Part shown: one piece after another, positions 1-64,000 of the stretch
How positions within the stretch are numbered: position 1 is the stretch's first letter
Layout: the number at the start of each line of letters is the position of its first letter
Notes under the pieces: generated by a model
Told to the model about the DNA's origin: nothing
Database searches by the model: none
The model's input: only the letters and a program-made list of their open reading frames with translations
IMG/VR virus record: IMGVR_UViG_3300023179_006727
Coordinates: 1-64,000 of that record
DNA length: 64,000 nt
Reading direction: 5' to 3' (one strand)
Source: a virus
Position numbers and translations under genes: made by a program

Positions 1-1580
1 TAGTATTCTAAAGTTGGTTCAGTTGCTGCGTCATTCCATTTATTACCCCATACATAGATGTAAGGTGGTGAAGTTGGATTAGGTCTCCATGCGAAATCTA
101 TTTCTGCACCTTCAATTAATACTTTCCAATTTGTCATATCAGGTAATAGTTCTACTATTTCTGACATATATTTGCGTTCTGTTGCTCCTTCTACGTGATA
201 TTCTAGGACAGGATCAAGTGTAACATCGCAATATTTGTTCCCCCATACATATATATAAGGTGGGCTTGTTGGGTTTGGTCGCCAACTATAATCAAATTTA
301 TTCTTGTTAACTTTAGCCAATTCAACCCATTTATCATACTGCGGTAATAATTCAACAGGTTCAGGCATATATTTTCGTTCAGTTGCGCCTTCTACATAAT
401 ATTCTAGTACAGGTTCAATAGAAGCATCAAAAAATTTATGTCCCCATACATAAATAAAGGGAGGTTCACGTGGATCAGGTCGCCAACTATAATCAAACTT
501 AGTCTCATCAATAGGCAACAACACTTTCCATTTCGACATATCAGGTAATAATTCTACTATTTCTGAAATGTATTTTCGTTCAGTTGCACCTTCTACAATA
601 TATTCTAACGCAGGTTCTATTTCAACAGGTGCGTACTTATGTCCCCATGTATAAATGTATGGTAATTCTGTTGGGTTAGGTCTCCATGTTAAATCAAATT
701 TTTTCTTATTAATCGATAAAAGTTCGTTCCAACATTTAGCAGGTTTTAATATAATATCATCGCCCATATATTTGTGTTCGGTGGCATTAGGCGTTCTATA
801 TTCAACGGTTGGTTTAATTGTGCCACTTACCCATTTATTACCCCATATATAGATATAGGGTGGGTCATGAGGGTGTGGAACCCATTGTGGATCAAGTTGT
901 AAATCTTCAATATCTTCGTGTATGACCCAATGATTTTGATCATTCACTAATTTAAAACGAAAATCATTGATATATTTTCTTTCAGTAGCTTCAGGTTGGT
1001 GATATTCAACCGTAGGCATTTCTTCAGCATTAAGATATTGATTGCCCCACACATAAATATATGGTGGTTCATAAGGATGTGGGTACCATTTTAATAAAGT
1101 TGAATCAATATTTACTTCATGTAAAATTTTCCAATGTTCAGGTAAACTTACAATCGTAGCAACGATAGTCGTTACATATTTTCGTTCTTTTGCGTTTTTA
1201 CATACATATTCAACTGTAGGCATATCAGCAACATATTGATTACCAAATGTCCAAATATAAGGTGGTTCAAATTCATCAGGATGCCAACTAAAATCAAATT
1301 CTATTTTAAATTTCTTATTAACAACCCAATTTTTCTTACTAGGTAAATGAATTGCAATTTGAGTTGATTGAAATTTATAACCTTCATGGTTGGGTACAAT
1401 AAATTTTGGTCCACCACTACGCTGCCATTGTGTACCGAATACATGAATATATGGACGATCATATTTGTCAGGTCGCCAACTAAAATTAAACTTAGTTGTA
1501 TCTAAATTATCGGGAATTTCCCAATAACCTTGCTCCCACAATGCTTCCCTACGATCTAATTCTGTTTGCTCAATATACAT
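1..1580 (-). CDS. Trp/Pro/Tyr-rich tandem-repeat protein (at least 8 repeats of ~66 aa); C-terminus runs off the window; absent from the ORF track
   Basis: Manual translation from ATG at 1580 (MYIEQTELDRREALWEQGYW...) stays open to base 1. The unit FDxSWRPxPxxPPYIYVWGxKx(6)PxLEYxxxGATERKY recurs every ~200 bp. A TAAATA box lies 5 nt upstream. Confidence 0.9.
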   Translation of the reverse strand, partial: MYIEQTELDRREALWEQGYWEIPDNLDTTKFNFSWRPDKYDRPYIHVFGTQWQRSGGPKFIVPNHEGYKFQSTQIAIHLPSKKNWVVNKKFKIEFDFSWHPDEFEPPYIWTFGNQYVADMPTVEYVCKNAKERKYVTTIVATIVSLPEHWKILHEVNIDSTLLKWYPHPYEPPYIYVWGNQYLNAEEMPTVEYHQPEATERKYINDFRFKLVNDQNHWVIHEDIEDLQLDPQWVPHPHDPPYIYIWGNKWVSGTIKPTVEYRTPNATEHKYMGDDIILKPAKCWNELLSINKKKFDLTWRPNPTELPYIYTWGHKYAPVEIEPALEYIVEGATERKYISEIVELLPDMSKWKVLLPIDETKFDYSWRPDPREPPFIYVWGHKFFDASIEPVLEYYVEGATERKYMPEPVELLPQYDKWVELAKVNKNKFDYSWRPNPTSPPYIYVWGNKYCDVTLDPVLEYHVEGATERKYMSEIVELLPDMTNWKVLIEGAEIDFAWRPNPTSPPYIYVWGNKWNDAATEPTLEY

Positions 1581-1585
1581 GACAA

Positions 1586-1617
1586 TATTTACTACCATTA
1601 TGGCAATTCTATAAATA
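1586..1617. promoter_or_regulatory. Divergent pair of T4-type late promoter boxes
   Basis: TATAAATA at 1610-1617 (+), 7 nt before ATG 1625. TAAATA at 1586-1591 (-), 5 nt before ATG 1580. A gp55 homologue is in the window. Confidence 0.7.
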
Positions 1618-1624
1618 TCTTATT

Positions 1625-2680
1625 ATGAATCTTCACAAAACCCCAGGCAAACCCATCCGCACCTATGATGAAACAGGACAATGGCGTGATTGGAGCACAG
1701 ATGAACTCGTTGGCGCAAAACTAAATTACTTACAAGGATGGAAATGCGGAGCAGGTGTTGATAGCCTATTTATTGATATGGACGGGTTTATATGGACTGC
1801 TAGCTGCCGTGTAGGTGGTCAACTAGGTAGTGTATGGGATACTTTTGAAGTACCTAATCAATGGATAGATTGTACCAAAAACGTTTGTTCATGTGGTGCA
1901 GATCTTTTTATACCAAAAGCACAAGATGAAAAGAAAATCATATTGTTACGTCAAAGTCAAGAATTAGATACTTTAATGGATAGGCAAAACAATCAGATTA
2001 CCAATTTTGTAGCAATGGAGCGTACACACGCTAGTAACCAAAAACAAATATATTGGGAAATTGGCAGACGTTGTAATTACGATTGTTCTTATTGTTGGCC
2101 TTGGATTCATAACAATACCGATCCACATAAACCATTAGAAGATTTAATTCGAGCAACTAACTTACTTGAAGAAAAATTTATGCATGGTGAAAGCGTAAAT
2201 TTTATCATTAGTGGCGGCGAACCAACTGTTAATAAAGATTTTCTAGATTGGTTACGATATCTTAACGCATTTGGTCATCATATTAGTTTACATAGTAATG
2301 GATCACGTAAACCTGATTATTATCGTGAAGTTATACATTATGGTGATTTAAACTTATCAGTACATTTTGAGTTTTATGATCGAGCAAAATTTGTTAAAGT
2401 GGTAGAAGCTGTAACAGATGAAAAATATAAAAATAACAATTATAATGTAGGGCATCTTGAAGTAAAGTTTATGATGCCTCCACAATATGTTGAAGAATCG
2501 CTTTCATTAGAGGCAGAGTTAAAACAAATACCACACTTTACAGATTTTTGTACATGGGCTTTTGTTCCTATTCGTGGTGGTATGAGTAATAAATTTTCTA
2601 AACCCGAAGATGATAGTGGTGCTGAAATTATGGAAGGATATGCACCTGAGCATTATGTGCTTTTTGGTGATCGTAAATGA
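1625..2680 (+). CDS. Radical SAM protein with N-terminal SPASM/twitch-like Cys domain
   Basis: CNYDCSYC (CX3CX2C), SGGEP and SNGS motifs; N-terminal GWKC...ASC...CTKNVCSC. Confidence 0.9.
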   Translation: MNLHKTPGKPIRTYDETGQWRDWSTDELVGAKLNYLQGWKCGAGVDSLFIDMDGFIWTASCRVGGQLGSVWDTFEVPNQWIDCTKNVCSCGADLFIPKAQDEKKIILLRQSQELDTLMDRQNNQITNFVAMERTHASNQKQIYWEIGRRCNYDCSYCWPWIHNNTDPHKPLEDLIRATNLLEEKFMHGESVNFIISGGEPTVNKDFLDWLRYLNAFGHHISLHSNGSRKPDYYREVIHYGDLNLSVHFEFYDRAKFVKVVEAVTDEKYKNNNYNVGHLEVKFMMPPQYVEESLSLEAELKQIPHFTDFCTWAFVPIRGGMSNKFSKPEDDSGAEIMEGYAPEHYVLFGDRK

Positions 2681-4032
2681 TTCCAATATATCCTGATCGA
2701 CCTAATACATTATGTAATTATGCGTGGGATTACTTAATGTTTTATATTAGCGAACCAAGTTTCACTTACTGTTGTCGAACATCAAGGAAAAGAATTACTC
2801 CTGAATTATATCAAGCATTTGGTAGTGAATTATTTTCTAATTTACCTGAGCATATTGACCGTAGAAAGAGTTTACTTAATAATGAGCAGCATAGTGATTG
2901 TCATACGTGTTGGAGTTTAGAAAATAATGGGTTTAAAAGTGCACGTAATGATATAAACTTTGAAGGCTACATGGAACGTAATATGGGTATTATACCTAAA
3001 TCTAAGAGTGACTTAGTGAACAATCCACAATTACAGTTATCCACATATGCAAATATAATAGAAATTGTTTTAAACAATACATGTGATGCTAAATGCACTT
3101 ATTGTAGTGAACATTATAGCACACAATGGTATGCAGAAAAGAAAAAATACAACATACCAATGACAAGGGAAAGTAGTCAACTTGGCGAACGTGATCCAAA
3201 AGCTGAATATTACTTTTGGAAATGGTACGAAGAAGTTGGCATGCAAAAACTATTTCGTTTTGGATTTATTGGTGGTGAACCATTAATAACTGATTTGATT
3301 TATGAATGTTTTGACAAATTAATAGAAATTCATGAAAAAAATCCAAGAATAGAGTCTGTTCGTAATATGGGTAATGGCGATTATTTAGATAAAGTTGAGT
3401 TATGTATTACTACTAATCTTAATACTCCTGAATCGTATTTTAAAAAGTTCTTAGAATATTTGCCTAGATTACAACAGCATTTTAACATTATCATTCAAGT
3501 AAGCAGCGAAAATGTTGGAGAAGAATTAGAGTATATCAGGTATGGTGTTAAATGGAATCGATTTAAAAATAATTTAGAAAAGTTGTTTAGTTTACCTGAT
3601 TTAGTTACTATTTCGTTTATGCCATGTTTAAATTTACTTGGATTGCCATCTTTATACAAGTATGTTGAATATTTTAAACAATGTAATGAAAATTATTATC
3701 CATTTTCTATTCATCGCAATATTGTAACTTGGCCCAAAGAACAAAGCCCAATGTCTGCACCAAAAGAATTTGCAAGATATTTAGATAAACCAATCGAAAT
3801 ATTTGAAGAATTAATTAATGACCCAAAATATAAAAAAGCCAAACCTCATCACAATTGGGAAGTATTTAGAGATTTCTTAATCCAAACACGTGAAGCGATT
3901 GAAAATAATCCTCCGATGGATAATATGCAAGATAAAGGTGAAGAAGTGCTGATATTTTTTGAAGAATTAGATCGAAGAAGAAATACGAATTTTATAAAAA
4001 CATTTCCTGAATTTAAAGAGTGGGTTTTATAA
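2677..4032 (+). CDS. Radical SAM protein with N-terminal twitch-like domain
   Basis: CDAKCTYC, IGGEP and TTN motifs; N-terminal C..AW...CC...CHTCW; ATGA overlap with the upstream gene. Confidence 0.9.
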   Translation: MIPIYPDRPNTLCNYAWDYLMFYISEPSFTYCCRTSRKRITPELYQAFGSELFSNLPEHIDRRKSLLNNEQHSDCHTCWSLENNGFKSARNDINFEGYMERNMGIIPKSKSDLVNNPQLQLSTYANIIEIVLNNTCDAKCTYCSEHYSTQWYAEKKKYNIPMTRESSQLGERDPKAEYYFWKWYEEVGMQKLFRFGFIGGEPLITDLIYECFDKLIEIHEKNPRIESVRNMGNGDYLDKVELCITTNLNTPESYFKKFLEYLPRLQQHFNIIIQVSSENVGEELEYIRYGVKWNRFKNNLEKLFSLPDLVTISFMPCLNLLGLPSLYKYVEYFKQCNENYYPFSIHRNIVTWPKEQSPMSAPKEFARYLDKPIEIFEELINDPKYKKAKPHHNWEVFRDFLIQTREAIENNPPMDNMQDKGEEVLIFFEELDRRRNTNFIKTFPEFKEWVL

Positions 4033-5194
4033 TAACTAGCTCATTTCGCAATTGTGGAACAATATCAGCGATTTTTTTATCACGCAATTTTTCAAGTGTT
4101 TTGGTTCTATGTACCCATTGATTATGTAATTCATTACCTAAATAACCATTTTTTAAATAATCAATAACAGGTGAATATAAATCATTATAATTTAAATGAG
4201 TGTAATATTCTATTAATGCTGAGAGCGTTTCAGGTTGCAAAACTAAAGCAGATTGATTTTCAGGACGTAAAACAAAATGTTTAAAGTTCGGTCTTTTAGG
4301 TATATGTTCTTTTTGTGGATATAATGTGAGGATATTGTTTTGCCACCATTGTCTTAACTCTTCAAGATTAAAAATATTATAAACAGAAATTGCACAGCTT
4401 AAGGAAAAATGATTTAAATTTTTTAGTTTACTAAATCTAATCAAAGTTTTTGTTACATTGTCAATATCACTTGTATATTGCGTATTAGGTGCAAACCTAA
4501 TCCAAGTATTTAAGTCACCAATACCATCGATACTACAAACAAAAATAACACTTTTAGCTTGTTCAACTAATTCTAAAATAGGTTCATTAATCACAGTACA
4601 ATTTGTTGTAATCATAATATTGACATTATGTAGTTGATTAATTTCTTTTAATTTTTGCAATACAAGTAAATTTTCTTTATTTAAAAATGGTTCACCACCC
4701 TTAAGCCATAAAGTCATTAAGTTAGACAAATCAATATTATCTAATAATTTAGTAGCAATTTCTCTATTAATAGGTTCAATTTTATGTTTACCATCTTTAT
4801 TCCAACCATTCTTATTAGATAACTCTATCCAAGCACTACTCCAATCTTCATTACACATTGCACAAGCTAAGTTACACGTATTAGTACTACTATATTCTAA
4901 ATATAAAATTTTTTCAGTTTCATCATAAGGGATAGCATTATAAACATTTAATCTTACACTTGTTTTAGTTTTATCTTCACGATTTTTACAAAAACGACAA
5001 CTTGGGTGCCATCTACCTTCGAGCATATGTTTCTTAACATCTTGCATAAAATTGCTTGATCTTATTTCTTGAATAGTTTGCTCATTTAAATTACCACATG
5101 GATCTTTATAATCCCATGCACAGCAAGGATTTACACTTTTATTTGGATTAATAGTTAAACTATTAAATGGTGCGCTACATAATACTTTTTTCAT
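4013..5194 (-). CDS. Radical SAM protein with N-terminal twitch-like domain
   Basis: CNLACAMC, KGGEP and SIDG motifs; N-terminal CSAPF...PCC...CRFC. Confidence 0.9.
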   Translation of the reverse strand: MKKVLCSAPFNSLTINPNKSVNPCCAWDYKDPCGNLNEQTIQEIRSSNFMQDVKKHMLEGRWHPSCRFCKNREDKTKTSVRLNVYNAIPYDETEKILYLEYSSTNTCNLACAMCNEDWSSAWIELSNKNGWNKDGKHKIEPINREIATKLLDNIDLSNLMTLWLKGGEPFLNKENLLVLQKLKEINQLHNVNIMITTNCTVINEPILELVEQAKSVIFVCSIDGIGDLNTWIRFAPNTQYTSDIDNVTKTLIRFSKLKNLNHFSLSCAISVYNIFNLEELRQWWQNNILTLYPQKEHIPKRPNFKHFVLRPENQSALVLQPETLSALIEYYTHLNYNDLYSPVIDYLKNGYLGNELHNQWVHRTKTLEKLRDKKIADIVPQLRNELVIIKPTL

Positions 5195-6540
5195 AACATT
5201 CTCGGTATAGTATTTAAGGCAATTTCATAAAATTCAGAAAATGTTTCTCTAAATATTTCGTTTCTATTTTCATCAATGGTTCTATTGTATTCTAAAAATT
5301 TAATCCATTGTTTGTGATCATATGAAGTTGAATTCATAAAATCAATAATGTTTTTTATACTTGCGCTTTGTTTATGATATTTTACATTGGAATTATTAAA
5401 ATTTAATAATTTATTTGTAATTATTTTTTTAATACTATCAGGTAAGTTTGTTATATTGGAATGTAAGGGATGATGCAATAAATTTAATACAAATTCAAAG
5501 TTTAAGTAAGATAATTGTTCAATAATTTCATCAAGATAATATATATTGTACATACTAATAGTTAGATATAGATAAAAACGACCATCTACATTATATAATT
5601 CAGAAAGAAGTTTAAAGTTTTCTAAGTTACTAATTACTTCATCATATATTGCATTCTTACGTTGGTATTCAAAACGTTTACCTATATCATCTATACTAAA
5701 ATTTACAACAACAAAATCAAATTGTTTCCATTTTATAACTAAGTCATCACTAAAATGTGTTCCATTTGTGTTATAACATAAATTTTGATCCTTTGATGAT
5801 CCGCTATTAATCATAATATCTAATATTTGATCATGTTCCTGTTGCATCAATGGTTCGCCACCATAAAACTCTATGCGTAAAATACCATCAGCCCATGATG
5901 TTAATATTTTTACATTTTCTTCATTAGTTAATAATTTTTCTTTGGCATTTTCCGCCCATACTACCATAGCACGTTTATCAGCCCAACCCAAATCTTTATA
6001 ATCTTTAATCCATTGTGTGCTTGACCATGGACCACATATTCTACATCTTAAATTACATAAATTACTTAATTTTAAATCTAGATTGGTTGGTTGCCCCGAA
6101 AATGCTCTTTTAAAATGTCTTTTAATATCATATCTTGAATCAGGATTTTGTAACCAATTTTTGTTATAAATCTGTCGCAAACTAATAATATTGCTTTTTT
6201 CCTCATTCCAACATACTTTACATTTTTCAGGTTTTTCATTACGCATAAAATCATCACGTAATTTATTCATTTCTTCACTATTAAATAATTGTACCACTGT
6301 TGAATTATGTAATGTTACTTTAGAATCATCTAACTTAAAAGCATCGTATTTACAACATGGACGACTAGTTCCTTCTGCTGTGATTTCCATATTAGTAAAT
6401 GGAGCAACACAAAAATTACTAGGCAAGAATTTATGATAATCATTATCAAAGTTCTTTTTTATTCCCCAATCATACTCGGCATCAATATGTTCAAATAATC
6501 TATCCTCTTCGATTGCTTTTTCGTATTCATCCCAATTCAT
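5191..6540 (-). CDS. Radical SAM protein with N-terminal twitch-like domain (start at ATG 6540 preferred over 6555)
   Basis: CNLRCRIC, YGGEP and NTNG motifs; CVAPF...RPCC...CKVCW. ATG 6540 forms an ATGA overlap with the upstream stop. Confidence 0.88.
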   Translation of the reverse strand: MNWDEYEKAIEEDRLFEHIDAEYDWGIKKNFDNDYHKFLPSNFCVAPFTNMEITAEGTSRPCCKYDAFKLDDSKVTLHNSTVVQLFNSEEMNKLRDDFMRNEKPEKCKVCWNEEKSNIISLRQIYNKNWLQNPDSRYDIKRHFKRAFSGQPTNLDLKLSNLCNLRCRICGPWSSTQWIKDYKDLGWADKRAMVVWAENAKEKLLTNEENVKILTSWADGILRIEFYGGEPLMQQEHDQILDIMINSGSSKDQNLCYNTNGTHFSDDLVIKWKQFDFVVVNFSIDDIGKRFEYQRKNAIYDEVISNLENFKLLSELYNVDGRFYLYLTISMYNIYYLDEIIEQLSYLNFEFVLNLLHHPLHSNITNLPDSIKKIITNKLLNFNNSNVKYHKQSASIKNIIDFMNSTSYDHKQWIKFLEYNRTIDENRNEIFRETFSEFYEIALNTIPRML

Positions 6541-7952
6541 AATAGTTTTTTGCACTCTTCTAAAAATGATATCATTTCAGGGAAAGTTTCTTCATAATTT
6601 AAATTACGTCTTTGGCGCATCTTTTCAACATTCAACGCAAACTCTTTCCTAGCATCATCACTTTTTTCAGGATTCTCGATACCCTTTTTTACCGTATATA
6701 AAAAGCTAATATAATGATCCCATCGACCAAATAAGTTATACGTGCCAGGTGTCACCTTCGCACTTTTTAATTCATTCATCATAATATCAATAGTTTCTAT
6801 AACATACTTTGAATATTCTACAGGCAAAATGTATGGACTTAACCAATGTGGATGACTGACTTGATTTTGACGTAAATGTATTCTACGATTAGTCCTGTTT
6901 TGTAAATCAATAATCCACCTAAAGAAGTTTGGCAAATCTGATATACATAATGCATTTAATGCTATTTGTAAATTAAAAATTATACGTTTTTGGTCAGGGT
7001 CAATTAAGTTAATAAACTCAATATAATTTTCTATATTGTTAGTCATGATTTCCCAATCTGTGCCTGTTCTAATATATTCTGCACGTTGTCCAATACTTTC
7101 ACAACTGACATTAAAATCTAAAGTAAACTGTTCCACACCAACAATTCTCATCGTAGTATCTAACCAACGATCATAAAACTTCTTTGGTGTATTAAAATTA
7201 GTAACAATAGAAAAATCAATATTTTTTTGTTCTGTCTTATGATCCTCGTAAAACTCACAAATACGATCAGTATAGCTATAAAATTTATCAATAATTAATG
7301 GTTCACCACCGATAAAGTTAATACAGTAAGTGTTCCATCCACTTTCGTTTTCAAACCAATCCCACCAAAATGTTTCATAAACTGTATCTTTGATCTTTGG
7401 TAGTTCAGTCTCCATTTCTTCAGGTTTAATTTCACCATACTTTAATCGTTCTGCCGCCCATTGTGAACTATAATGATGATGACAGTACAAACACTTTAAG
7501 TCACATATGTTACCCAAACTAATTTCAATCATGTTAGTATGTGGTAATCTAGATAACATCTCAAATTCATCAGAGGTAAGATTATATAGTTTTTCTTTTA
7601 ATTCATCACGTGATAATGTAGGCCAAAGTTTTTTTGATTGCACAAAATTGACAAAACGATCCCATCCTGTTCTTGGACTTTTTGCACCGCTATCTTCAAT
7701 ATCCCAACATACTGAACAGGCATCATTACGAATACCACGTAACATGTCTTTACGCACATTTACAATAGGTGGGAAATGTGTAAACAATCCACGCTCTAGT
7801 CGCCAATCTTCAGGTAATATTTTATGACTTTTACTACGACAACAATTTCTTAATTCATTACGTGAAATGTTTAATACACTATAATCCCATGCAAATTGGC
7901 ATACAGTATCTTTAATATCACCTTCACGTTTAATCTCAATGACTTGATTCAT
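6537..7952 (-). CDS. Radical SAM protein with N-terminal twitch-like domain; paralogue of 2677..4032
   Basis: CDLKCLYC and IGGEP motifs; CQFAWDY...CCRS...CSVCW; HYSSQW matches HYSTQW of the paralogue. Confidence 0.9.
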   Translation of the reverse strand: MNQVIEIKREGDIKDTVCQFAWDYSVLNISRNELRNCCRSKSHKILPEDWRLERGLFTHFPPIVNVRKDMLRGIRNDACSVCWDIEDSGAKSPRTGWDRFVNFVQSKKLWPTLSRDELKEKLYNLTSDEFEMLSRLPHTNMIEISLGNICDLKCLYCHHHYSSQWAAERLKYGEIKPEEMETELPKIKDTVYETFWWDWFENESGWNTYCINFIGGEPLIIDKFYSYTDRICEFYEDHKTEQKNIDFSIVTNFNTPKKFYDRWLDTTMRIVGVEQFTLDFNVSCESIGQRAEYIRTGTDWEIMTNNIENYIEFINLIDPDQKRIIFNLQIALNALCISDLPNFFRWIIDLQNRTNRRIHLRQNQVSHPHWLSPYILPVEYSKYVIETIDIMMNELKSAKVTPGTYNLFGRWDHYISFLYTVKKGIENPEKSDDARKEFALNVEKMRQRRNLNYEETFPEMISFLEECKKLL

Positions 7953-7961
7953 AAGTTTTAT

Positions 7962-9116
7962 TTAGTTTAAGCCTAGTACCTCGCTCCATTTTGGGAAAGT
8001 ATCCACAAAATCCTGATTCCTAAAATTGTCTAATATTTCAAGTTCATCAAGAAATTTTTGCCATTCTCCTATTTTTTCGGGTAAATTTAAAAAGTTTAAA
8101 ATATCAGGAAAATTTTCTAATCTTTCTTGTAATTGTGCTTTAACAAAATGAGGTAAATTTCTTATGTTGTATTTTTCGTTTTTGTGTAATATATTGTAAT
8201 GAACAAATAAATGCTTACTTTTTGCCCACGCAGCATATTCAGGTAAGTAGTATACATTAAAATTACTTACGGTACAAAATAATATTACTTCTATATTGGG
8301 ATGTTTATCTCGTAAATTGATAAACTTATCTACATTTTTAAGTATTACATTCCAATTACTAGGAAAACGATGATATTCTTGTCTTTCCTCTAAATCATCT
8401 ATACTTAAACATATCGTTGTTTTTTTAAATTGTTTAAGAAAATTTATTAAAGTTTCGTTCCAATGTGTTACATTAGTATTAATTAACATTGTTTTTTCAG
8501 ATAAAGCTGATTGTTCACTTAATAAACTTAGAATTTTAACATTTTCAGGTGATGTCATGGGTTCACCTCCTGTCATTTCAATGTGTTGAATGTTACTTGA
8601 CCATTGCGATATTATCTTTTCATTTTTAGTATCAGTGATTTTATCTTGTGTCCAATAGTTTGATTCAGGTAAATTAATATTCCATAACAATTTATATTCT
8701 TTATTATATGTTGAGGATGCTTGTGGACCACATATACGGCATTTTAAATTACAAACATTGTTAAGTTTTAAATCTAATACTAGTGGAGAATCAACAGTAA
8801 GTTTAGTAAAATCAACTTTGCTAATGTCTATTTTTTTGGTTTCAACAAATGTTTGTCGATAACTTTTAATACCACCTTGTTCGTCATTCCAACACATGCT
8901 ACATTCATGAGGTTCTTCACCATTAATGAATGCTTGACGTAATTTTTGCCAATCATCTGAGTTATATAATTTATTTAATTGACCCCTATAAATAAAAGGT
9001 AATTTATGATTAGTTTGTGCATTAGGTTGATAATATCTACAACATGGTCTTAGACTGCCATTAACATCGATTGATAAATTAATCCATGGTAACGGGCAAA
9101 ACTTTTTATTGGACAT
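7962..9116 (-). CDS. Radical SAM protein with N-terminal twitch-like domain
   Basis: CNLKCRIC and TGGEP motifs; CPLPW...RPCC...CSMCW. Confidence 0.9.
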   Translation of the reverse strand: MSNKKFCPLPWINLSIDVNGSLRPCCRYYQPNAQTNHKLPFIYRGQLNKLYNSDDWQKLRQAFINGEEPHECSMCWNDEQGGIKSYRQTFVETKKIDISKVDFTKLTVDSPLVLDLKLNNVCNLKCRICGPQASSTYNKEYKLLWNINLPESNYWTQDKITDTKNEKIISQWSSNIQHIEMTGGEPMTSPENVKILSLLSEQSALSEKTMLINTNVTHWNETLINFLKQFKKTTICLSIDDLEERQEYHRFPSNWNVILKNVDKFINLRDKHPNIEVILFCTVSNFNVYYLPEYAAWAKSKHLFVHYNILHKNEKYNIRNLPHFVKAQLQERLENFPDILNFLNLPEKIGEWQKFLDELEILDNFRNQDFVDTFPKWSEVLGLN

Positions 9117-10077: not shown

Positions 10078-10082
10078 GCTAT

Positions 10083-49086: not shown

Positions 49087-49098
49087 AGTATTTTATCT

Positions 49099-54422: not shown

Positions 54423-54441
54423 AGTAATACCCTTATTTTTA

Positions 54442-54520
54442 TATTTATGACTAAATAAAAGTGCCATTTTTACCTAATAAATCCTAATATATTGATTTTT
54501 TTGTTAATATTATGTAACAT
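54442..54520. promoter_or_regulatory. Divergent control region: back-to-back late boxes plus a sigma70-like promoter for gp55
   Basis: TATTTA-tgac-TAAATA at 54442-54457; TTGATT(54492-54497)-N17-TAACAT(54515-54520); GGAG SD before ATG 54547. Confidence 0.6.
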
Positions 54521-54546
54521 TATAGGTATTATAACTACGGAGCATT

Positions 54547-56430: not shown

Positions 56431-56470
56431 TAATTTGACTTTAGTATTTACGCTGTTATACATTCTATGA

Positions 56471-57487
56471 ATGAGTAAATTATTTAAAAAGGCAGCAGTT
56501 TTCACTGATATACATTTTGGAATGCGTAATAACAGCATCCAACACAATGAGGACTGCATACAATTCGTTGATTGGTTTATAAAAACTGCCAAGAAAGAAG
56601 GGTGTGAAACCTGTTTCTTTCTTGGAGATTGGCATCATAATCGTGCCACAGTCAACGTTCTTACCCTAAATTACAGCTTAAATGCATTGGAAAAATTAAA
56701 TGAATCGTTTGACTGCGTTTATTTTATTGTTGGTAATCATGACCTTTATTATCGAGATCGTCGTGACGTACAGAGTGTTGAATGGGCTAAGCACCTTAAA
56801 AGAATTCGTATTTGTAACGATTGGGTTATTGATGGCGATTGTGTCATTGCTCCCTGGCTTATTGGGGAAGATTATAAAAAAATACAAACCCTAAACGCAA
56901 AATACCTGTTTGGTCACTTTGAACTACCATCATTTTATATGAATGCTATGGTTGAAATGCCCGATCACGGTGAAATCAACCGTAATCACGTATTACAATT
57001 TGGGCATGTTTTCACAGGACATTTTCATAAAAGACAAACAAAAGGAAACGTAACATATATTGGTAACGCATTTCCGCATAACTATAGTGATGTAAATGAT
57101 GATGATCGTGGTATGATGATACTAGAATGGGGTAAAGAACCACAATTTCGTTCTTGGGATAATCAACCTAAATTTCGTTCGTATACTTTATCAGAAATTT
57201 TGGATAACCCTGATAAATTACTGTTACCTAATACAAGCGTAAAAATACAAATTGATCGTGAAATCAATTACGAAGAATCAAGTTCAATCAAGGAAACTAT
57301 TATGAAAGAATATAATTTAAGAGAAATGACCTTAATTCCACAACGTGTTGACATTGAAACTGATACCACAGATCAAGTAAACTTACAATTTGAGAGTGTT
57401 GATACTATTGTATTGTCACAAATTGAACAACTTGAAGCAGGTGCTTATGATAAGCAACTGCTACTTAACATTTACAGAAATTTATGA
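56471..57487 (+). CDS. gp47: Recombination endonuclease subunit (Mre11/SbcD-like)
   Basis: Phosphoesterase motifs DIHFG, LGDWHH, VGNHD and GHFH. Confidence 0.92.
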   Translation: MSKLFKKAAVFTDIHFGMRNNSIQHNEDCIQFVDWFIKTAKKEGCETCFFLGDWHHNRATVNVLTLNYSLNALEKLNESFDCVYFIVGNHDLYYRDRRDVQSVEWAKHLKRIRICNDWVIDGDCVIAPWLIGEDYKKIQTLNAKYLFGHFELPSFYMNAMVEMPDHGEINRNHVLQFGHVFTGHFHKRQTKGNVTYIGNAFPHNYSDVNDDDRGMMILEWGKEPQFRSWDNQPKFRSYTLSEILDNPDKLLLPNTSVKIQIDREINYEESSSIKETIMKEYNLREMTLIPQRVDIETDTTDQVNLQFESVDTIVLSQIEQLEAGAYDKQLLLNIYRNL

Positions 57488-59649
57488 TCGTTATAAAAGA
57501 ATTAACCATTAAAAACTTCCTATCAGTAGGCAATGTTACACAAAAAATTAACTTCAATCGCAACGATTTAACTCTTATTCTTGGTGAAAATCGTGATTTA
57601 GGTGGAGATGGTGCACGTAATGGCACAGGAAAATCCACTATTGTACAAGCACTTAGCTATGCTCTATACGGTTCAGTTCTTAATAATATCAAAAAAGATA
57701 ATCTAATTAACCTTACTAATGGTAAAGGTATGCTCGTTACCGTTGATTTTGATATCAATGGCAAAGAATATCGTATTGAACGTGGGCGAAAACCTAATAT
57801 ATTGAAGTTCTATGTAGACAATTCCGAACAAGAATTTGATGAAGATGATAGCGAAAGTCAAGGTGAAAGTAAAGAAACCCAAGCTAAAATCGAGTCTATG
57901 ATAGGCATTTCTGCTGAAATGTTTAAGCATATTGTTGCATTAAACACCTATAATGAACCATTTTTAGCACTTAAAGCAGCAGATCAACGTGAAATTATTG
58001 AACAATTGCTTGGTATTACCTTGCTTAGTGAAAAAGCTGAAGGTATTAAAGAACTCAATCGTAACGTAAAAGAACAAATTCAAAAAGAGGAATTTAAGAT
58101 ACGTAGTGTGCAAGATGCCAATACAAAAATCCAAGAACAAATTGATAATCTTAAGCGTAGACAAACACTTTGGACTACAAAAAAGAATGAAGATATTACC
58201 AATTATACGAATCAATTAATTGAATTATACAAAATTGATATTGATCAAGAAATTAGTGCGCATCGTTCTTTAGTGATTTATAATGAAAAACAAACAACAT
58301 TAACCAATGCTAAAAATCATTATGATACTGAGCTGTCTAAACTTACTAACCGATACAATGAAACTGTTGTGTCAAATCGGAAAGAAAGTAGTGCTATCAG
58401 TACACAAATGAATAATTTACAGAATATTGACATTCATATCGAAATTTCAAACTTAAAAATTATTTCTGAAATTAGGGAAAAAACAATTAAACGTGATAAT
58501 ACAAAGAAATTATTTACAAACGCTAATGCTACTTGTATACGTTTAAAAAAAGCTATTGATGATATTAATGGAGAACTAGTTAAGTTATATGACCACAAAT
58601 GTTATGCATGTGGTCAAGATTTTCATGATAATAGCCTTAAAATTGTTATAGAGGATAAAGAAACTAAGCTAGAAGAACTTAAGGTAGAATATGATACTGC
58701 ACAAACACAATACGCAGAATATGAAACTATTCTTAAAGAAATTGGTGATATACCATTAACTCCTACTGTAGTGTATAAAACTTTGGAAGAAGCGATTAAT
58801 CACAAGTCTACCATAGATTCGTTGGATGAAAAATCAAAAAAGTTGTTAGAAACTATTGACCAAGCTAAAAAATTATATGAAAAGGATATTACAGCACTTG
58901 AACAACAATACAATATAGTTGTTAGTAAGATTGGTGATATCGGAACAAAACCAACTATTATCTATAAAAATTTAGAAGAAGCATTAAAACATCAAAGTAC
59001 GGTTGAAAAGTTAGAGCAAGCCTTAGAAAAGCGTGTTGATGAGTTTGATCCTTATGCTGACCAAATCAATGATATGCAAAATAATAGTCTTGTTGAGGTT
59101 AATTTTGGCACGTTAAATGATTTAACTAAGGTATTAAAGCATCAAGAATACTTGTTAGACTTGTTAACAAATAAGAAATCTTTTGTTCGTAAGAAGATTA
59201 TTGAACAAAATTTAAGTTATTTGAATACTCGTTTAGGTAATTATTTGGATAAAATGGGTTTACCTCATCGTGTTAAGTTTCAAAATGATCTTAGTGTAGA
59301 AATTACAGAGCTAGGTCGTGATTTAAGTTATGGCAATTTTAGTCGTGGTGAAAGCACTCGTTTGATACTATCACTATCATTTGCTTTCCGTGATGTATGG
59401 GAAAACCTGTATCATAGTATCAATTTATTGTTTATTGATGAAATGATTGACAATGGATTAGATACGGTCGGTGTAGAAAATGCCATTGGATTGTTTAAAG
59501 AATTAGGTAGACGTAGAGATAAATCGGTATGGTTAATCTCACATCGTGATGAATTGGTAAGTCGTGTTAATAACGTATTACATGTGATTAAAGAGGGTGG
59601 TTTTACTCGTTACTCTAATGTCAATGAAAAATTTGCGTTGCCGATATAA
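57484..59649 (+). CDS. gp46: Recombination ATPase subunit (Rad50/SbcC-like)
   Basis: KNFLS, Walker A NGTGKS, Zn-hook CYAC, signature FSRGE, Walker B LFIDE, ISH. Confidence 0.92.
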   Translation: MIVIKELTIKNFLSVGNVTQKINFNRNDLTLILGENRDLGGDGARNGTGKSTIVQALSYALYGSVLNNIKKDNLINLTNGKGMLVTVDFDINGKEYRIERGRKPNILKFYVDNSEQEFDEDDSESQGESKETQAKIESMIGISAEMFKHIVALNTYNEPFLALKAADQREIIEQLLGITLLSEKAEGIKELNRNVKEQIQKEEFKIRSVQDANTKIQEQIDNLKRRQTLWTTKKNEDITNYTNQLIELYKIDIDQEISAHRSLVIYNEKQTTLTNAKNHYDTELSKLTNRYNETVVSNRKESSAISTQMNNLQNIDIHIEISNLKIISEIREKTIKRDNTKKLFTNANATCIRLKKAIDDINGELVKLYDHKCYACGQDFHDNSLKIVIEDKETKLEELKVEYDTAQTQYAEYETILKEIGDIPLTPTVVYKTLEEAINHKSTIDSLDEKSKKLLETIDQAKKLYEKDITALEQQYNIVVSKIGDIGTKPTIIYKNLEEALKHQSTVEKLEQALEKRVDEFDPYADQINDMQNNSLVEVNFGTLNDLTKVLKHQEYLLDLLTNKKSFVRKKIIEQNLSYLNTRLGNYLDKMGLPHRVKFQNDLSVEITELGRDLSYGNFSRGESTRLILSLSFAFRDVWENLYHSINLLFIDEMIDNGLDTVGVENAIGLFKELGRRRDKSVWLISHRDELVSRVNNVLHVIKEGGFTRYSNVNEKFALPI

Positions 59650-59666
59650 AGATATAAGTAAAATAT

Positions 59667-60179
59667 ATGCCATCTGCTAGTAAAATTAAAGGAAGTTCAT
59701 TTGAGAGGGATATTGCAAAATATTTGTCCGATCTATATAATGAGTCTTTTGTACGTGTTCCAAATAGTGGAGCATTTATTGGTGGTATTAACAAAGATAG
59801 GAAATCTTATTTGCATGAGGGACAGGTTCGCAGTTTTAAGGGAGATATAATTCCTGGGGAATCGTTTCAATTATTAAATATAGAATGCAAAAACTATGCA
59901 GATTTTCCGTTCTATCAAATTCTAACTACATGTAAATTATTAGATGATTGGTTAGATCAATTGATGGATGTAAGTGATAAGGATGATTTGAACGTTCTTT
60001 TTATGAAATTCAATCGTAAAGGTCGTTATATTGCAGTAGAACAAAAACATAAATGGAAAATGAACAATTACTTAGTATATCATAGTGATATATATGGTTC
60101 ATGGATTATCTCAGAATTAGAACATTTTTTTAAATTAAACTCAGGTCTCTTCAAAACTCTCTCCAAAAATAATACTTAG
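59667..60179 (+). CDS. Holliday junction resolvase-like PD-(D/E)XK nuclease
   Basis: SKIKGSSFER, SGA, GDII and IECK motifs. Confidence 0.8.
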   Translation: MPSASKIKGSSFERDIAKYLSDLYNESFVRVPNSGAFIGGINKDRKSYLHEGQVRSFKGDIIPGESFQLLNIECKNYADFPFYQILTTCKLLDDWLDQLMDVSDKDDLNVLFMKFNRKGRYIAVEQKHKWKMNNYLVYHSDIYGSWIISELEHFFKLNSGLFKTLSKNNT

Positions 60180-62036: not shown

Positions 62037-62064
62037 TTGGTTAAAATCTCCATATATATTGTTG

Positions 62065-62078
62065 GATAAATATATTTA
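62065..62078. promoter_or_regulatory. Palindromic divergent late promoter
   Basis: TAAATATATTTA (62067-62078) supplies TAAATA on both strands between the gp26-like and tape-measure genes. Confidence 0.6.
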
Positions 62079-62103
62079 ATCTTAAAAAAATATGATATAA
62101 AAA

Positions 62104-64000
62104 ATGGCAGATCAACTTGATCCTGATATAATACAACAGTTAAATGAGAAATTTAACGAATTAGCTGCTATTACCTCGTCTGCTGCAGCACGAGCTAGTG
62201 CAAGTGCTTCTGCTACTCAAAATCAAACTGCAGCAGCAAAAAAAAATACTGATGCAAGTAATGATAATTTTGAAGCTATAAGACGTGCAAATCAAGCAAT
62301 ACGACAACAATCAGGTGCAGTAGATTCTAGTCGTGCTACTATTAATAGATTAAATGCTAGTATTCAAGATCAGTACAAAGCTTACGAGGCCAATCAAAAA
62401 GCTATAGAAGAAATTGAAAAGGCTACTAATAAAGCAGCACAACAGGAGCGTAATAAAGCAATTCATCTTGAGCGTGCAGTAGAATCCACAATTGCTGCAT
62501 TTGAACAATTAGGCAAAGCTATATTTGATTCTAGTAGGGGAATGTCAAAATATACAGGTGTAGTTGAAAACCTTACAACTGCAGTAAGTGCGTTGTTATT
62601 AATTTTTGGCGGTCCGTTACTCAAAGTGGTAGGTTTAGTTGTTGGAGCATTAGGTAAATTATTTGGTGCGCAATTAGAGCAAATTGAAGCAAGTAATAAA
62701 TTATATGAATCGTTAAGTGAATTTGGTGCATTAAGATTAGATGAGTTTGGTAATGGTATACAGTCTATCACACAAGATGTACATAAATTTGGATTAACAG
62801 TAAAGAATGATGGTGGATTATTTGTAGATAGTATGAAAGGTATGTCCAAGGAGATTGTTGCGCTTGGAGGTACAGTAGGTCAAGGTCGTGGACAATTAGC
62901 GGATGCTTTTGGTGCAAATATTGGTGCACCTATTGAAGATGAATTACGCAGACTTGGTTATAATAGTCAAACATATTTTAAATCATGGGCAAAAGCTACG
63001 CAATTAGCTATACAATCAGGTCAAGCTGTTGGTAAAAGTAATTCGGAGTTAAACAAACAAACCAATCAATATTTAAAAACGTTAACTGAACTAAGTGAAT
63101 TAACAGGTATTTCACGTGATGAGCAAATGGCTATACGTGAAAGAGCAATGCAAGATGAAGCTTATTTCATGAAACGCCGTGAAATTGCTGCTAGTGGGGA
63201 TGACAAAGCTTTAGAACGTTTTGATAAATTAACTACGGTAACAAATCAGTTTGGTGATGGAATTGGGCAGGTAATTAAAGAAGTAACGAATGCAGGTGGA
63301 GTAGTTACTGAAAGAGCAGCAGAAATTAATGCATTTACAAATGGAGCAATTGAACGTGCCACACAAGCATATAATCGTGGTGCGATTGATGAACAACAGT
63401 TACGTAAAGAAATTGCAGAGGCAGTTAATTCATTAAGAGAAAGATTTGGTTCAAAAGCTATAGCGATTTTGGGTAATGATTTTGCAAAAGCGATAGGCTT
63501 ATCAAGTGAAGCAATGAAGGCATCTGCGACTATAGAAAAACAATCTGCGGATGCAGCAAAAACAGCAAGAAATGTCATAGATAAAATTGCTGCAGAAGGT
63601 GCAGGAAAAGAACGTCAAATTGCAATTGATGAAAACAAAATGGCTATAAAAAATCAACAAGCCTTAGAAAAAGTCATTCAAGTGACAAATGGACCGCTTA
63701 TTGGGGCTTTTGAAAAATTAATTCAAGTCACTAATAAGTTGCGTGATGCTTTTGTAAAAATATTACGTATGGTTGGTATTGATGCTGAAGCGGGTACATC
63801 AGCGGAATCAAAAAGACGTGTACAAGCTGCTGAAAGTTCATTAGAAGAGACCAAAAAAAGTTTAGAATTTCAAAAACAGCAAGCTCAAAAAACTGCGATG
63901 AGAGCAGCAGGTATTAAAGAAGGTGAGACAGGAACAGAGGAGCAACGTAAAAAGTATCAAGAAATATACAATAAAGAATTAGAACGTACTACAAAATTTG
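62104..64000 (+). CDS. Probable tape-measure protein, runs off the window; absent from the ORF track
   Basis: MADQLDPDIIQQLNEKF...; open to the window end (>630 aa); Ala/Gln/Glu-rich helical composition with one hydrophobic segment (SALLLIFGGPLLKVVGLVVGALGKLFG); adjacent to the chaperone pair. Confidence 0.8.
   Translation, partial: MADQLDPDIIQQLNEKFNELAAITSSAAARASASASATQNQTAAAKKNTDASNDNFEAIRRANQAIRQQSGAVDSSRATINRLNASIQDQYKAYEANQKAIEEIEKATNKAAQQERNKAIHLERAVESTIAAFEQLGKAIFDSSRGMSKYTGVVENLTTAVSALLLIFGGPLLKVVGLVVGALGKLFGAQLEQIEASNKLYESLSEFGALRLDEFGNGIQSITQDVHKFGLTVKNDGGLFVDSMKGMSKEIVALGGTVGQGRGQLADAFGANIGAPIEDELRRLGYNSQTYFKSWAKATQLAIQSGQAVGKSNSELNKQTNQYLKTLTELSELTGISRDEQMAIRERAMQDEAYFMKRREIAASGDDKALERFDKLTTVTNQFGDGIGQVIKEVTNAGGVVTERAAEINAFTNGAIERATQAYNRGAIDEQQLRKEIAEAVNSLRERFGSKAIAILGNDFAKAIGLSSEAMKASATIEKQSADAAKTARNVIDKIAAEGAGKERQIAIDENKMAIKNQQALEKVIQVTNGPLIGAFEKLIQVTNKLRDAFVKILRMVGIDAEAGTSAESKRRVQAAESSLEETKKSLEFQKQQAQKTAMRAAGIKEGETGTEEQRKKYQEIYNKELERTTKF

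What the first reader, a model, noticed from the sequence alone, without database searches (positions are those of the whole stretch)
1..64000. Near-total avoidance of CCAG/CTGG and CCGG except where Pro-Gly makes it unavoidable
Seen: Ala-Gly, Thr-Gly and Ser-Gly are written GCA/ACA/TCA GGN, and Pro-Glu/Asp is written CCT GAN. CCTG/CAGG is therefore abundant, while the same-composition CCAG/CTGG is almost confined to CCWGG. By eye I found only about ten CCAG/CTGG outside CCWGG and one CCGG (~14573). Every Pro-Gly coding contains CCAG, CTGG or CCGG, which explains why those sites survive. Inference: the targeted motif is the asymmetric 4-mer CCAG (or CCRG) rather than the Dcm palindrome, and it is costly or hypermutable. 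This points to the recognition site of the process behind the halos.
Basis: partly seen in the sequence, partly recalled or inferred. Interest (0 to 1): 0.75.

Follow-up and report, generated by a model that had tools for sequence, protein, structure and literature searches.

The report
Phage purge of the word CCAG
A giant lake-water phage has silently rewritten its codons to remove the four-letter DNA word CCAG (with CCGG, CGCG and a few classic restriction sites); the copies that Pro-Gly codons force it to keep each sit in a one-strand, about 35-base stretch of silent changes to C, which points to an unidentified strand-reading DNA enzyme.

Summary
Observation confirmed. In the window, CCAG/CTGG outside CCWGG occurs 11 times against 224±11 in codon-preserving shuffles. 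CCGG occurs once (14573) against 27 expected, and CGCG never against 21.

44 of the 45 CCWGG sites are in-frame Pro-Gly. CCWGG is forced, not exempt: out-of-frame copies number 3 against 44 expected across three sister phages. Pro-Gly is never spelled CCC/CCG GGN.

The sister phages purge the same words, plus CAGCTG, TGGCCA and GGCC. More distant relatives purge other 4-mers (TGCA, AGCT, ACGT, TCGA, CATG). The cultured relative PA5oct purges none of these words. This is the pattern of restriction-site avoidance, and CCAG-specific methyltransferases are on record.

The agent reading CCAG is asymmetric. Each forced site has C at 46-65% of silent positions (baseline 11%) on the CCAG strand, from -10 to +14, with a tail to about +26. 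Forced GGCC, forced TGCA and Pro-Gly in non-purging relatives show no such halo.

Between sisters, 41% of shared sites have flipped CCA/CCT, and the halo has flipped with them. Selection (armour) and a CCAG-triggered mutational scar therefore both remain possible.

This scan had already noted the same purge and halo on sister DNA. I found no paper describing either.

The parts
1..64000 (.). Window-wide purge of CCAG/CTGG, CCGG and CGCG, and also of CAGCTG and TGGCCA, on both strands of a T4-like jumbo phage fragment.
   Evidence: CCAG/CTGG outside CCWGG: 11 against 224±10.6. CCGG: 1 against 27. CGCG: 0 against 21. Contig-wide, CAGCTG is 1 against 28.9 and TGGCCA 0 against 11.9.
1643..59857 (.). 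45 surviving CCWGG sites (21 CCAGG and 24 CCTGG on the + strand). 44 are in-frame Pro-Gly codon pairs, and each carries a C-rich silent halo on the CCAG strand.
   Evidence: The mean is 4.47 C at the ten silent positions from -10 to +20, against 0.75 in controls. Searches give the halo profile.
18624..18662 (+). Example of a halo around the CCAGG at 18636, with upstream and downstream silent positions mostly C.
   Evidence: Site context listed; statistics.
14502..14666 (.). Cluster of unpurged words inside small ORF 14419-14841(-): CTGG at 14502, CCAG at 14552, 14639 and 14663, and the window's only CCGG at 14573.
   Evidence: The segment has no nucleotide homologue in the sister phages.
15722..15978 (.). 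Second cluster of unpurged words, in the paralogous small ORF 15646-16038(-): CCAG at 15722, 15917 and 15971; CTGG at 15801 and 15975.
13681..16171 (-). Tandem duplication of about 1.2 kb next to the tail-fibre genes, read as a host-range-type cassette. The ends of the two copies are 79-96% alike and the centres of the small ORFs have diverged. It holds 10 of the window's 12 non-forced purge-word survivors (9 CCAG/CTGG plus the window's only CCGG).
   Evidence: repeats D1, D2, D4, D5, D7.
17967..17970 (+). Isolated unforced CCAG (CCAGC) in a tail-fibre-like ORF segment that has no sister homologue.
37477..37480 (+). Isolated unforced CTGG in the 6306-aa gene. It is the only survivor in the window that lies in a segment conserved with a sister phage.
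56853..56857 (+). The only CCWGG that is not Pro-Gly: CCC TGG (Pro-Trp) in the SbcD-like gene. It is avoidable, and it has 5 C in the halo comb.

Best explanation
The window is part of a 101.7-kb fragment (about 27% complete) of an uncultured freshwater T4-like jumbo phage.

Its genes have been rewritten at silent positions so that the asymmetric word CCAG/CTGG almost disappears, together with CCGG, CGCG and palindromes such as CAGCTG and TGGCCA. The most likely cause is long-term selection against target words of host DNA-cutting defence systems, that is, restriction-site avoidance.

The CCWGG copies survive only because Pro-Gly cannot be spelled without CCAG, CTGG or CCGG. The phage always takes the single-CCAG spelling, CCW GGN.

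The agent that reads CCAG is asymmetric and strand-polar. It is probably a Type IIS/IIG- or Type III-like enzyme that marks the single adenine of CC-A-G. This class assignment is inferred, not shown.

Each forced site is wrapped in a halo of about 35 nt in which silent positions carry C on the CCAG strand. My preferred reading is that the halo weakens the enzyme at sites that cannot be removed. This is also an inference.

Shown here: the purge, the forcing by Pro-Gly, the polarity of the halo and its specificity to CCAG. Inferred: the nuclease, its class, and the protective role of the halo.
For: (1) Size of the purge: 11 against 224±10.6 in the window. Contig-wide z is -17.7 for CCAG[ACT] and -15.7 for [AGT]CTGG.

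(2) Both orientations are purged relative to transcription, so the effect acts on DNA, not RNA.

(3) Classic Type II sites are purged alongside. In this contig: CGCG 0 against 30, CCGG 2 against 39, CAGCTG 1 against 29, TGGCCA 0 against 12. In sister G12: CGCG 0/78, CCGG 3/85, GGCC 30/103, CAGCTG 0/57, TGGCCA 0/22, AGCGCT 0/15.

(4) The purge is lineage-specific. Only the three closest IMG/VR relatives share the list. Relatives at 62-66% identity purge TGCA, AGCT, ACGT, TCGA or CATG instead. The syntenic 50 kb of PA5oct, also 33% GC, has CCAG 116 against 105 expected.

(5) 21 of 25 survivors lie in segments without a nucleotide homologue in the sisters. Ten sit in one duplicated tail-fibre-side cassette, as expected for DNA imported recently.

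(6) The replacements are whatever synonym is available (CCTG/CAGG +160, CCAC/GTGG +112). They are not transition products; CTAG has z = +1.3.

(7) Selection is clearly acting at the forced sites. CCA is never changed to CCC, although neighbouring silent positions are 50-65% C.

(8) CCAG is a real methyltransferase specificity. It was confirmed by knockout in H. pylori A45, and CCAG plus TGGCCA are methylated in T. phaeum (PMC10689673). Type III Mod enzymes with GCAG and CCAGC sites are known (PMC3036652; PMC4417156).

(9) The halo is polar and tied to the word, not to translation. The CCA and CCT classes give the same profile in CCAG-strand coordinates: 0.2 at -13, about 0.5 at -10, a plateau to +14 and a tail to +26.

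(10) The halo is absent from Pro-Gly sites of non-purging relatives (n = 297).
Against: The host and its restriction systems are unknown, so no cognate enzyme is shown.

A survey of about 4000 phages found avoidance almost only for orthodox palindromic Type II sites, none for Type IIG and very rarely for Type III (PMC6286503).

About 60 forced and 22 unforced CCAG copies remain in 101 kb. An all-or-none nuclease would still cut. The story therefore needs either a small additive cost per site or a protective halo.

A classical Type III enzyme could be escaped simply by co-orienting the forced sites, which is a silent CCA/CCT choice. Yet the orientation is 21:24 in the window and 31:29 in the contig.

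If halos were orientation-specific armour, flipping CCA to CCT should be selected against. In fact 23 of 56 orthologous sites are flipped between sisters. That is about the rate of neutral A/T change at fourfold sites, 37%.

Forced sites of other purged words carry no halo: Trp-Pro GGCC, n = 32, and Met-His/Gln TGCA in relatives, n = 37.

I know of no enzyme that is inhibited by the C content of one strand.
Confidence: 0.62

Rival explanations
1. CCAG is hypermutable rather than costly. An enzyme, from host or phage, nicks the CCAG strand about 11 nt upstream of the word. A patch of about 25-40 nt is then resynthesised 5' to 3' with a strong bias towards inserting C. Avoidable sites are destroyed by this process. 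Forced sites survive under amino-acid constraint and keep accumulating C at silent positions, which makes the halo.
For: The halo has the shape expected of a repair patch: a sharp 5' edge (0.2 at -13, 0.5 at -10), a plateau, and a gradual 3' decay from +17 to +29. The shape is the same for both codon classes.

Orientation flips between sisters occur at about the neutral rate, and the halo is always rebuilt on the new strand. Flipped sites show 48-51% halo base, unflipped sites 54-62%.

Pro-Gly sites unique to one phage have nearly full halos (58%), while the partner lacking the site is at baseline (12.7%).

The halo occurs only at CCAG and not at other forced purge words.

Halo C does not depend on its neighbouring bases.

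CCC is over-used before G-starting codons: 43 of 72 CCC codons.
Against: A and T are replaced by C about equally. No known polymerase or deaminase bias does this.

Purged sites mostly became CCT G (260), not CCC G (43).

CCA GGN never becomes CCC GGN (0 against 14.2 expected), so selection on the words is needed in any case.

The same genomes purge ordinary palindromic restriction sites without halos.

Codon positions 1 and 2 inside halos show no shift.
Confidence: 0.2
2. The phage itself encodes a CCAG-directed nuclease or nickase, for example to degrade host DNA. It has cleared its own genome of the target, and the halos mark the remaining sites as immune.
For: The same word list is kept in three phages that have diverged to 72-79% nucleotide identity. 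That fits a phage-borne agent as well as it fits a stable host.

The halo is unique to CCAG.
Against: No restriction-like nuclease or DNA methyltransferase was found in about 330 kb of clade DNA. PF00145, PF01555 and PF02384 gave no hit above cut-off. The contigs are only 12-45% complete, so this is weak evidence.

A cassette with ten naked sites is tolerated.

The co-purged palindromes look like a host restriction repertoire.
Confidence: 0.07
3. The CCWGG sites are spared because Dcm-type methylation protects them, or the pattern is a by-product of Dcm/Vsr very-short-patch repair.
For: CCAG/CTGG survives almost only inside CCWGG.
Against: Out-of-frame CCWGG is purged: 3 against 43.8 expected.

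59 of the 60 CCWGG sites in the contig are in-frame Pro-Gly.

No C5-methyltransferase was found.

Very-short-patch repair predicts CTAG loss and CCAG gain, which is the opposite of what is seen. CTAG is at expectation.

The halo distinguishes CCAGG from CCTGG.
Confidence: 0.03
4. The pattern is a translational or codon-pair effect around Pro-Gly, or general codon bias, and not a DNA-level signal.
For: The halo has a three-base period and lies around a dipeptide known to be slow to translate.
Against: The three-base period simply reflects which positions are silent.

CCA sites take C-ending neighbouring codons and CCT sites take G-ending ones. The polarity follows the DNA word, not the direction of translation.

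Non-purging relatives show no halo at 297 Pro-Gly sites.

The purge is equal on the coding and template strands.
Confidence: 0.02

Closest known systems
Restriction-site avoidance in virulent dsDNA phages (survey: Rusinov et al. 2018, PMC6286503)
   Same: Silent removal of short words on both strands. The removal is near-complete and lineage-specific, and it is accompanied by removal of classic Type II palindromes (CGCG, CCGG, CAGCTG, TGGCCA, GGCC).
   Different: The main word is an asymmetric 4-mer, a class for which that survey found avoidance absent or very rare. About 60 copies are forced to remain. These carry a strand-specific silent halo, which I found in no paper.
CCAG-specific DNA methyltransferases (H. 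pylori A45 hp944; T. phaeum CCAG and TGGCCA motifs; Konanov et al. 2023, PMC10689673)
   Same: They show that CCAG is a genuine recognition word of restriction-modification-type enzymes. In T. phaeum it is methylated together with TGGCCA, which this phage also purges.
   Different: Those organisms are not plausible hosts of a lake phage. No cognate nuclease, cleavage position or flank preference is described for them.
Type III restriction-modification enzymes (EcoP15I CAGCAG; HP0593 GCAG; ModD1 CCAGC; PMC11142916, PMC3036652, PMC4417156)
   Same: Their sites are asymmetric, of the N-C-A-G type, with one adenine methylated on one strand only; CTGG has no adenine. Their contacts run from about 6 bp upstream to the cut 25-26 bp downstream, along defined 'methylating' and 'translocating' strands. 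That resembles the halo's span (-10 to about +26) and its polarity.
   Different: Type III cleavage needs two inversely oriented sites. Silently co-orienting the forced sites would give escape, but orientation here is random (21:24). No dependence on strand composition is known for these enzymes.
T7 strand bias against EcoP15I, and the T5 first-step-transfer region free of sites
   Same: Both are sequence-level ways in which a phage evades restriction.
   Different: Here there is no strand bias and no regional restriction. The purge covers the whole contig apart from imported segments.

Membership tests
Restriction-site avoidance (phage anti-restriction strategy) | The word is under-represented against a null that keeps protein sequence and codon usage. 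| tested here: met
   11 against 224±10.6 in the window. Contig-wide z is -15.7 to -17.7.
Restriction-site avoidance (phage anti-restriction strategy) | The avoidance is specific to a lineage or host, not a general property of the phage family. | tested here: met
   Only the three closest of 80 relatives share the list. Others purge TGCA, AGCT, ACGT, TCGA or CATG. PA5oct purges none of these words.
Restriction-site avoidance (phage anti-restriction strategy) | The word is a known specificity of a restriction-modification enzyme. | tested here: met
   From the literature: a CCAG methyltransferase confirmed by knockout (PMC10689673). CGCG, CCGG, CAGCTG and TGGCCA are classic Type II sites (my own knowledge).
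Restriction-site avoidance (phage anti-restriction strategy) | The host carries the cognate system. | not testable with these tools
   The host is unknown. The phage is known only from freshwater and lake metagenomes.
Dcm/EcoRII-type CCWGG system (protection or avoidance of the palindrome) | The unit recognised is the symmetric 5-mer CCWGG. | tested here: not met
   CCAGA, CCAGT and CCAGC are all purged. Out-of-frame CCWGG is purged, 3 against 43.8 expected. The halo distinguishes CCAGG from CCTGG.
Type III restriction target | An asymmetric site with a methylatable adenine on one strand only. | tested here: met
   Read directly from the sequence: CCAG has one A and CTGG has none.
Type III restriction target | Escape by strand bias, because cleavage needs inversely oriented sites. 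| tested here: not met
   Forced sites are 21 CCAGG and 24 CCTGG in the window, and 31:29 in the contig.
Type III restriction target | Enzyme reach from just upstream of the site to 25-27 bp downstream. | tested here: inconclusive
   The halo runs from -10 to about +26 with a 3' tail. EcoP15I contacts are taken from PMC11142916. This is a resemblance only.
Very-short-patch repair signature | CTAG is depleted and CCAG/CTGG enriched. | tested here: not met
   CTAG is 182 against 179 expected. CCAG is depleted about 20-fold.
T5-like restriction-site-free first-entry region | The purge is confined to one block of early genes. | tested here: not met
   The purge spans the structural, recombination and radical-SAM regions of the whole 101-kb contig.

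The most novel reading that the evidence does not exclude
CCAG is the entry site of an undescribed strand-polar DNA-processing activity. The action of that activity, rather than selection, writes C into about 35 nt of the CCAG-bearing strand, starting about 11 nt upstream. Avoidable sites erase themselves, and forced Pro-Gly sites carry a permanent mutational halo. This would be motif-triggered, strand-specific local hypermutation in a phage genome.
Probability: 0.2. Interest if true: 0.95.

Novelty: new variant of a known kind. Interest (0 to 1): 0.78.

Why it matters
Restriction-site avoidance is textbook for palindromes. Here three things go beyond the textbook case:
- An asymmetric 4-mer is removed about 20-fold from a jumbo phage.
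- The genetic code sets a floor on the removal, because Pro-Gly cannot be spelled without the word.
- Each irreducible site carries a polar, one-strand halo of silent changes that follows the site's orientation through evolution.

If the halo is armour, phages can tune flanking DNA to blunt an enzyme at sites they cannot delete. That would be a new anti-restriction principle, and the halo would be a sequence-only read-out of the enzyme's footprint and polarity.

If the halo is a scar, it records a site-directed mutagenic process not known in phages.

Either way, the signature can be searched for in metagenomes. It can point to the responsible defence system in freshwater bacteria, and it gives a concrete substrate design for biochemical tests.

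Tried and rejected
**Protection of CCWGG by methylation.** Rejected by the frame analysis. No C5, N4/N6 or N6 DNA methyltransferase domain was found in G000-G003. The contigs are fragments, so the absence of a gene is weak evidence.

**Base hypermodification.** No DpdA/TGT homologue and no thymidylate-synthase-like dCMP hydroxymethylase in the purging clade. The same caveat applies.

**A shield built from a short overlapping motif (GpC, CpC or CpG).** Rejected. Halo C is independent of its 5' and 3' neighbours.

**GC content or duplex stability as the selected property.** Rejected. NNR codons beside CCA sites do not shift to G, and NNY codons beside CCT sites do not shift to C.

**Halos as a general device at forced restriction sites.** Rejected. 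There is none at Trp-Pro GGCC in the same phages or at ATG CAN TGCA in relatives that purge TGCA.

**CRISPR PAM plus protospacer.** Rejected, because the halo lies on both sides of the word.

**Chi-like protection after cutting.** Rejected, because it would need opposite strand polarity on the two sides.

**Very-short-patch repair.** Rejected, because it predicts the opposite polarity and CTAG loss.

**Strong depletion of the Pro-Gly dipeptide.** Only mild. Observed/expected is 0.60, against 1.22 in non-purging relatives. In ortholog alignments the ratio of relative-only to G000-only Pro-Gly is 3.05, against 2.13 for Gly-Pro. Part of this reflects composition.

**Orientation chosen to suit the flanking amino acids.** No signal.

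**Population variants.** Contigs of four lake runs were laid on 36001-56000. Only 40 of 158 differences were listed, too few for a spectrum. One (39933, A to C) creates a CCAG in other populations, and one (45661) removes a halo C.

**RNA.** No RNA holder was listed.

**Near-identical records among cultured phages.** None.

**tRNAs in the window.** None.

**Host identification.** Not attempted beyond habitat, because no suitable tool route was available.


Full report
**What the DNA is.** The window is the first 64 kb of a single 101,734-bp IMG/VR virus contig with 33% G+C. CheckV puts it at about 27% complete. It encodes T4-type baseplate wedge and hub proteins, a gp55-like late sigma factor, SbcCD-like gp46/47, a 6306-aa virion protein and an island of radical-SAM genes. 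The nearest cultured relatives are jumbo phages at about 50% protein identity: Pseudomonas PA5oct and the E. coli 121Q/PBECO4 group. Near-identical DNA occurs in freshwater and lake metagenomes of several studies from 2018 to 2024.

- The window has 28 CCAG and 28 CTGG, of which 45 lie inside CCWGG. It has 263 CCTG and 221 CAGG, one CCGG (14573) and no CGCG.
- I used 200 shuffles that keep every protein and each gene's codon usage. CCAG/CTGG outside CCWGG number 11 against 224±10.6, with a minimum of 192 in any shuffle. The same class of CCTG/CAGG is 435 against 273. CCGG is 1 against 27 and CGCG 0 against 21.
- The whole contig gives z = -17.7 and -15.7 for the two orientations on the coding strand. 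RNA-level explanations are therefore out.
Ala/Thr/Ser-Gly uses NCA 301 times and NCT 9 times. Pro before Val/Ala/Asp/Glu uses CCT 260, CCC 43, CCA 7 and CCG 0 times. Gln after an NNC codon is CAA 66 times and CAG 0 times. Trp follows NNC once.

**CCWGG is forced, not spared.**
- 44 of the 45 CCWGG in the window, and 59 of 60 in the contig, are in-frame Pro-Gly.
- Every spelling of Pro-Gly contains CCAG, CTGG or CCGG.
- In this phage and two sisters, out-of-frame CCWGG occurs 3 times against 43.8 expected. Pro-Gly is never CCC/CCG GGN (0 against 14.2 expected).
- All 5-mer extensions are depleted: CCAGA 0/109, ACTGG 4/127, CCAGC 15/104.
- The Pro-Gly dipeptide itself is only mildly reduced. Observed/expected is 0.60, against 1.22 in non-purging relatives. 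Gly-Pro is also low, so part of this is composition.

**The exceptions.** In the contig, 21 of the 25 unforced CCAG/CTGG/CCGG lie in segments with no nucleotide homologue in the sister phages. Ten sit in a tandemly duplicated 1.2-kb cassette beside the tail-fibre genes (13681-16171). The ends of its two copies are 79-96% alike, and the centres of two small paralogous ORFs have diverged. I read this as recently exchanged host-range DNA that has not yet been purged. That reading is an inference.

**Context that points to restriction avoidance.**
- The same genomes lack classic palindromic sites. In this contig, CAGCTG is 1/29 and TGGCCA 0/12.
- The sister G001+G002, merged to 184 kb, has CGCG 0/78, CCGG 3/85, GGCC 30/103, CAGCTG 0/57, TGGCCA 0/22, AGCGCT 0/15 and CGATCG 0/8.
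- Of 80 IMG/VR relatives found with the SbcD-like protein, only the three at 80% identity share the CCAG/CCGG/CGCG purge. Relatives at 62-66% identity purge other 4-mers: TGCA, AGCT, ACGT, TCGA or CATG.
- PA5oct, with the same G+C and the same gene order, has CCAG at 116 against 105 expected.
- The words that absorb the deficit are whatever synonyms exist: CCTG/CAGG, CCAC/GTGG, CCAA, CCAT. CTAG is at expectation, so there is no deamination-type decay pattern.
- CCAG is a documented methyltransferase specificity. It was confirmed by knockout in H. pylori A45, and it is methylated together with TGGCCA in T. phaeum (PMC10689673).
- Type III Mod enzymes with GCAG and CCAGC sites exist (PMC3036652; PMC4417156).
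- The published survey of phage site avoidance found it almost only for orthodox Type II palindromes (PMC6286503). An asymmetric 4-mer purged 20-fold is therefore unusual.

- I oriented every site as CCAGG and counted C among silent positions that can take C on that strand. The fraction is about 0.1 beyond -19 and 0.2 at -16 and -13. It jumps to 0.49 at -10 and stays at 0.46-0.65 through +14. It then falls to 0.38 (+17), 0.28 (+20), 0.21 (+23) and 0.20 (+26), reaching baseline by about +29 to +35. The baseline is 0.11, and n is about 180 sites in three phages.
- CCA GGN sites (CCAG on the coding strand) and CCT GGN sites (CCAG on the template strand) give the same profile in CCAG-strand coordinates. 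The polarity therefore belongs to the DNA word, not to translation.
- The effect is strictly on one strand. Beside CCA sites, NNY and fourfold codons go to C, but NNR codons do not go to G. Beside CCT sites the reverse holds.
- A and T are replaced about equally. The identity of the neighbouring bases does not matter. Codon positions 1 and 2 are untouched.
- In the window, a site has on average 4.47 C at ten comb positions, against 0.75 in controls.
- Three controls show no halo: 297 Pro-Gly sites in non-purging relatives, 32 forced GGCC sites (Trp-Pro, which is never TGG CCA) in the purging phages themselves, and 37 forced TGCA sites in TGCA-purging relatives.
- The halo is therefore specific to CCAG. 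The agent that reads CCAG differs in kind from whatever drives the palindrome purges.

**Evolutionary behaviour.**
- Among 56 orthologous Pro-Gly pairs between the three phages, 33 keep the same Pro codon and 23 are flipped between CCA and CCT (41%). Neutral A/T differences at fourfold sites in the same genes run at 37%.
- Flipped sites carry full halos of their own polarity (48-51% halo base).
- Sites present in only one phage have nearly full halos (58%). The partner sequence lacking Pro-Gly is at baseline (12.7%).
- Halos are thus made and lost quickly and follow the site faithfully.
- If the halo were orientation-specific armour against a costly site, a flip should be disfavoured. From the strength of the purge I estimate a suppression of roughly ten-fold, and that is not seen.
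- Saturation of silent sites and non-independent pairs weaken this argument. It is still real tension.

**Weighing the mechanisms.** Selection on the words is certain at some level, because CCA never becomes CCC at forced sites while adjacent silent positions are half C.
- My best reading (0.62) is avoidance of a host defence enzyme with an asymmetric CCAG (perhaps CCRG) site and a modest cost per site. The halo then either attenuates that enzyme or records its action.
- A Type III-like or Type IIS/IIG-like enzyme fits in three ways. The site is asymmetric. The only adenine is on one strand. The halo span resembles EcoP15I's contacts, from about 6 bp upstream to the cut 25-26 bp downstream on defined strands (PMC11142916).
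- Classical Type III is disfavoured, because the silent escape by co-orientation is not used: orientation is 21:24.
- The mutational rival (0.2) is favoured by the patch-like profile and by the free flips. It is disfavoured by the equal replacement of A and T, by CCT rather than CCC at purged sites, and by the company of ordinary restriction palindromes.
- A phage-borne nuclease (0.07) cannot be excluded on fragmentary genomes.
- Dcm/Vsr and translational explanations are refuted.

**Novelty and prior notes.** This scan had already reported the same purge and one-strand halo on sister DNA (e1-5743846, e1-5743854, e1-5743864, e1-5904708). I re-derived all of it here independently. I added the following:
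- the internal controls (forced GGCC, forced TGCA, Pro-Gly in non-purging relatives);
- the test for neighbour independence;
- the per-class polarity profile;
- the ortholog analysis of flipped sites and of partners lacking the site;
- the test for Type III orientation bias.

I found no paper that describes a CCAG purge or flank halos. The literature tool covers open-access text only.

**Limits.** The host is unknown, and all genomes are fragments. ORFs were called by a simple longest-ORF rule. One long ORF (73889-79627) was first missed because it overlaps the next one. This does not affect the window figures. Pairs among three phages are not independent. No experiment was possible.

Noticed in passing
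window 1625-10077: Seven consecutive radical-SAM genes in two converging runs, followed by glycosyltransferase-like genes at 12088-13684. All QueE-like matches are weak, and no DpdA was found, so nothing ties them to DNA modification.
   Followed up: partly
window 54547-56430: The gp55-like late sigma factor matches its family at residues 8-220 and 552-618, with an insert of about 340 aa in between. This fits the intein noted by another reader.
   Followed up: no
window 13681-16171: Tandem 1.2-kb duplication made of a small 130-140-aa ORF, a small 84-99-aa ORF and a 102-aa ORF (truncated in copy 2), with a duplicated fragment of the tail-fibre gene's 3' end. The small ORFs (both starting MARYIKSF) have conserved ends and divergent centres, like exchangeable receptor-binding cassettes.
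   Followed up: partly
G000 contig 73889-79627 and 79528-89115 (beyond the window): Two long ORFs in different frames overlap by about 100 nt. Another report reads them as a single 5075-aa RCC1-repeat protein, which would need a frameshift near 79.55 kb.
   Followed up: no
G000 contig 64933, 64984, 65083 (beyond the window): Three unpurged CCAG copies sit in an identical 16-nt context (GCAGTGCCAGCACAAA), spaced 51 and 99 nt apart, in the 3' end of ORF 62104-65358. This is a short in-gene repeat without a sister homologue.
   Followed up: no
window 39933: Contigs from four other lake runs read C instead of A here, which creates a CCAG (ACCCAGT). The purge is therefore not absolute across populations.
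   Followed up: partly
L004-L080 (IMG/VR relatives): Members of this jumbo-phage family each purge a different 4-mer: TGCA 8/71 in L004, AGCT 1/62 in L036, ACGT 0/34 in L015, TCGA 1/18 in L027, CATG 9/69 in L080. Together they form a natural series for linking phage lineages to host restriction repertoires.
   Followed up: partly
G000, G001+G002 and G003 coding sequences: Trp-Pro is never written TGG CCA (0 of 32, against 13.8 expected), which avoids TGGCCA. Halo-driven GGC codons create GGCC (for example GGC CAA), so the halo preference overrides the weaker GGCC purge.
   Followed up: yes
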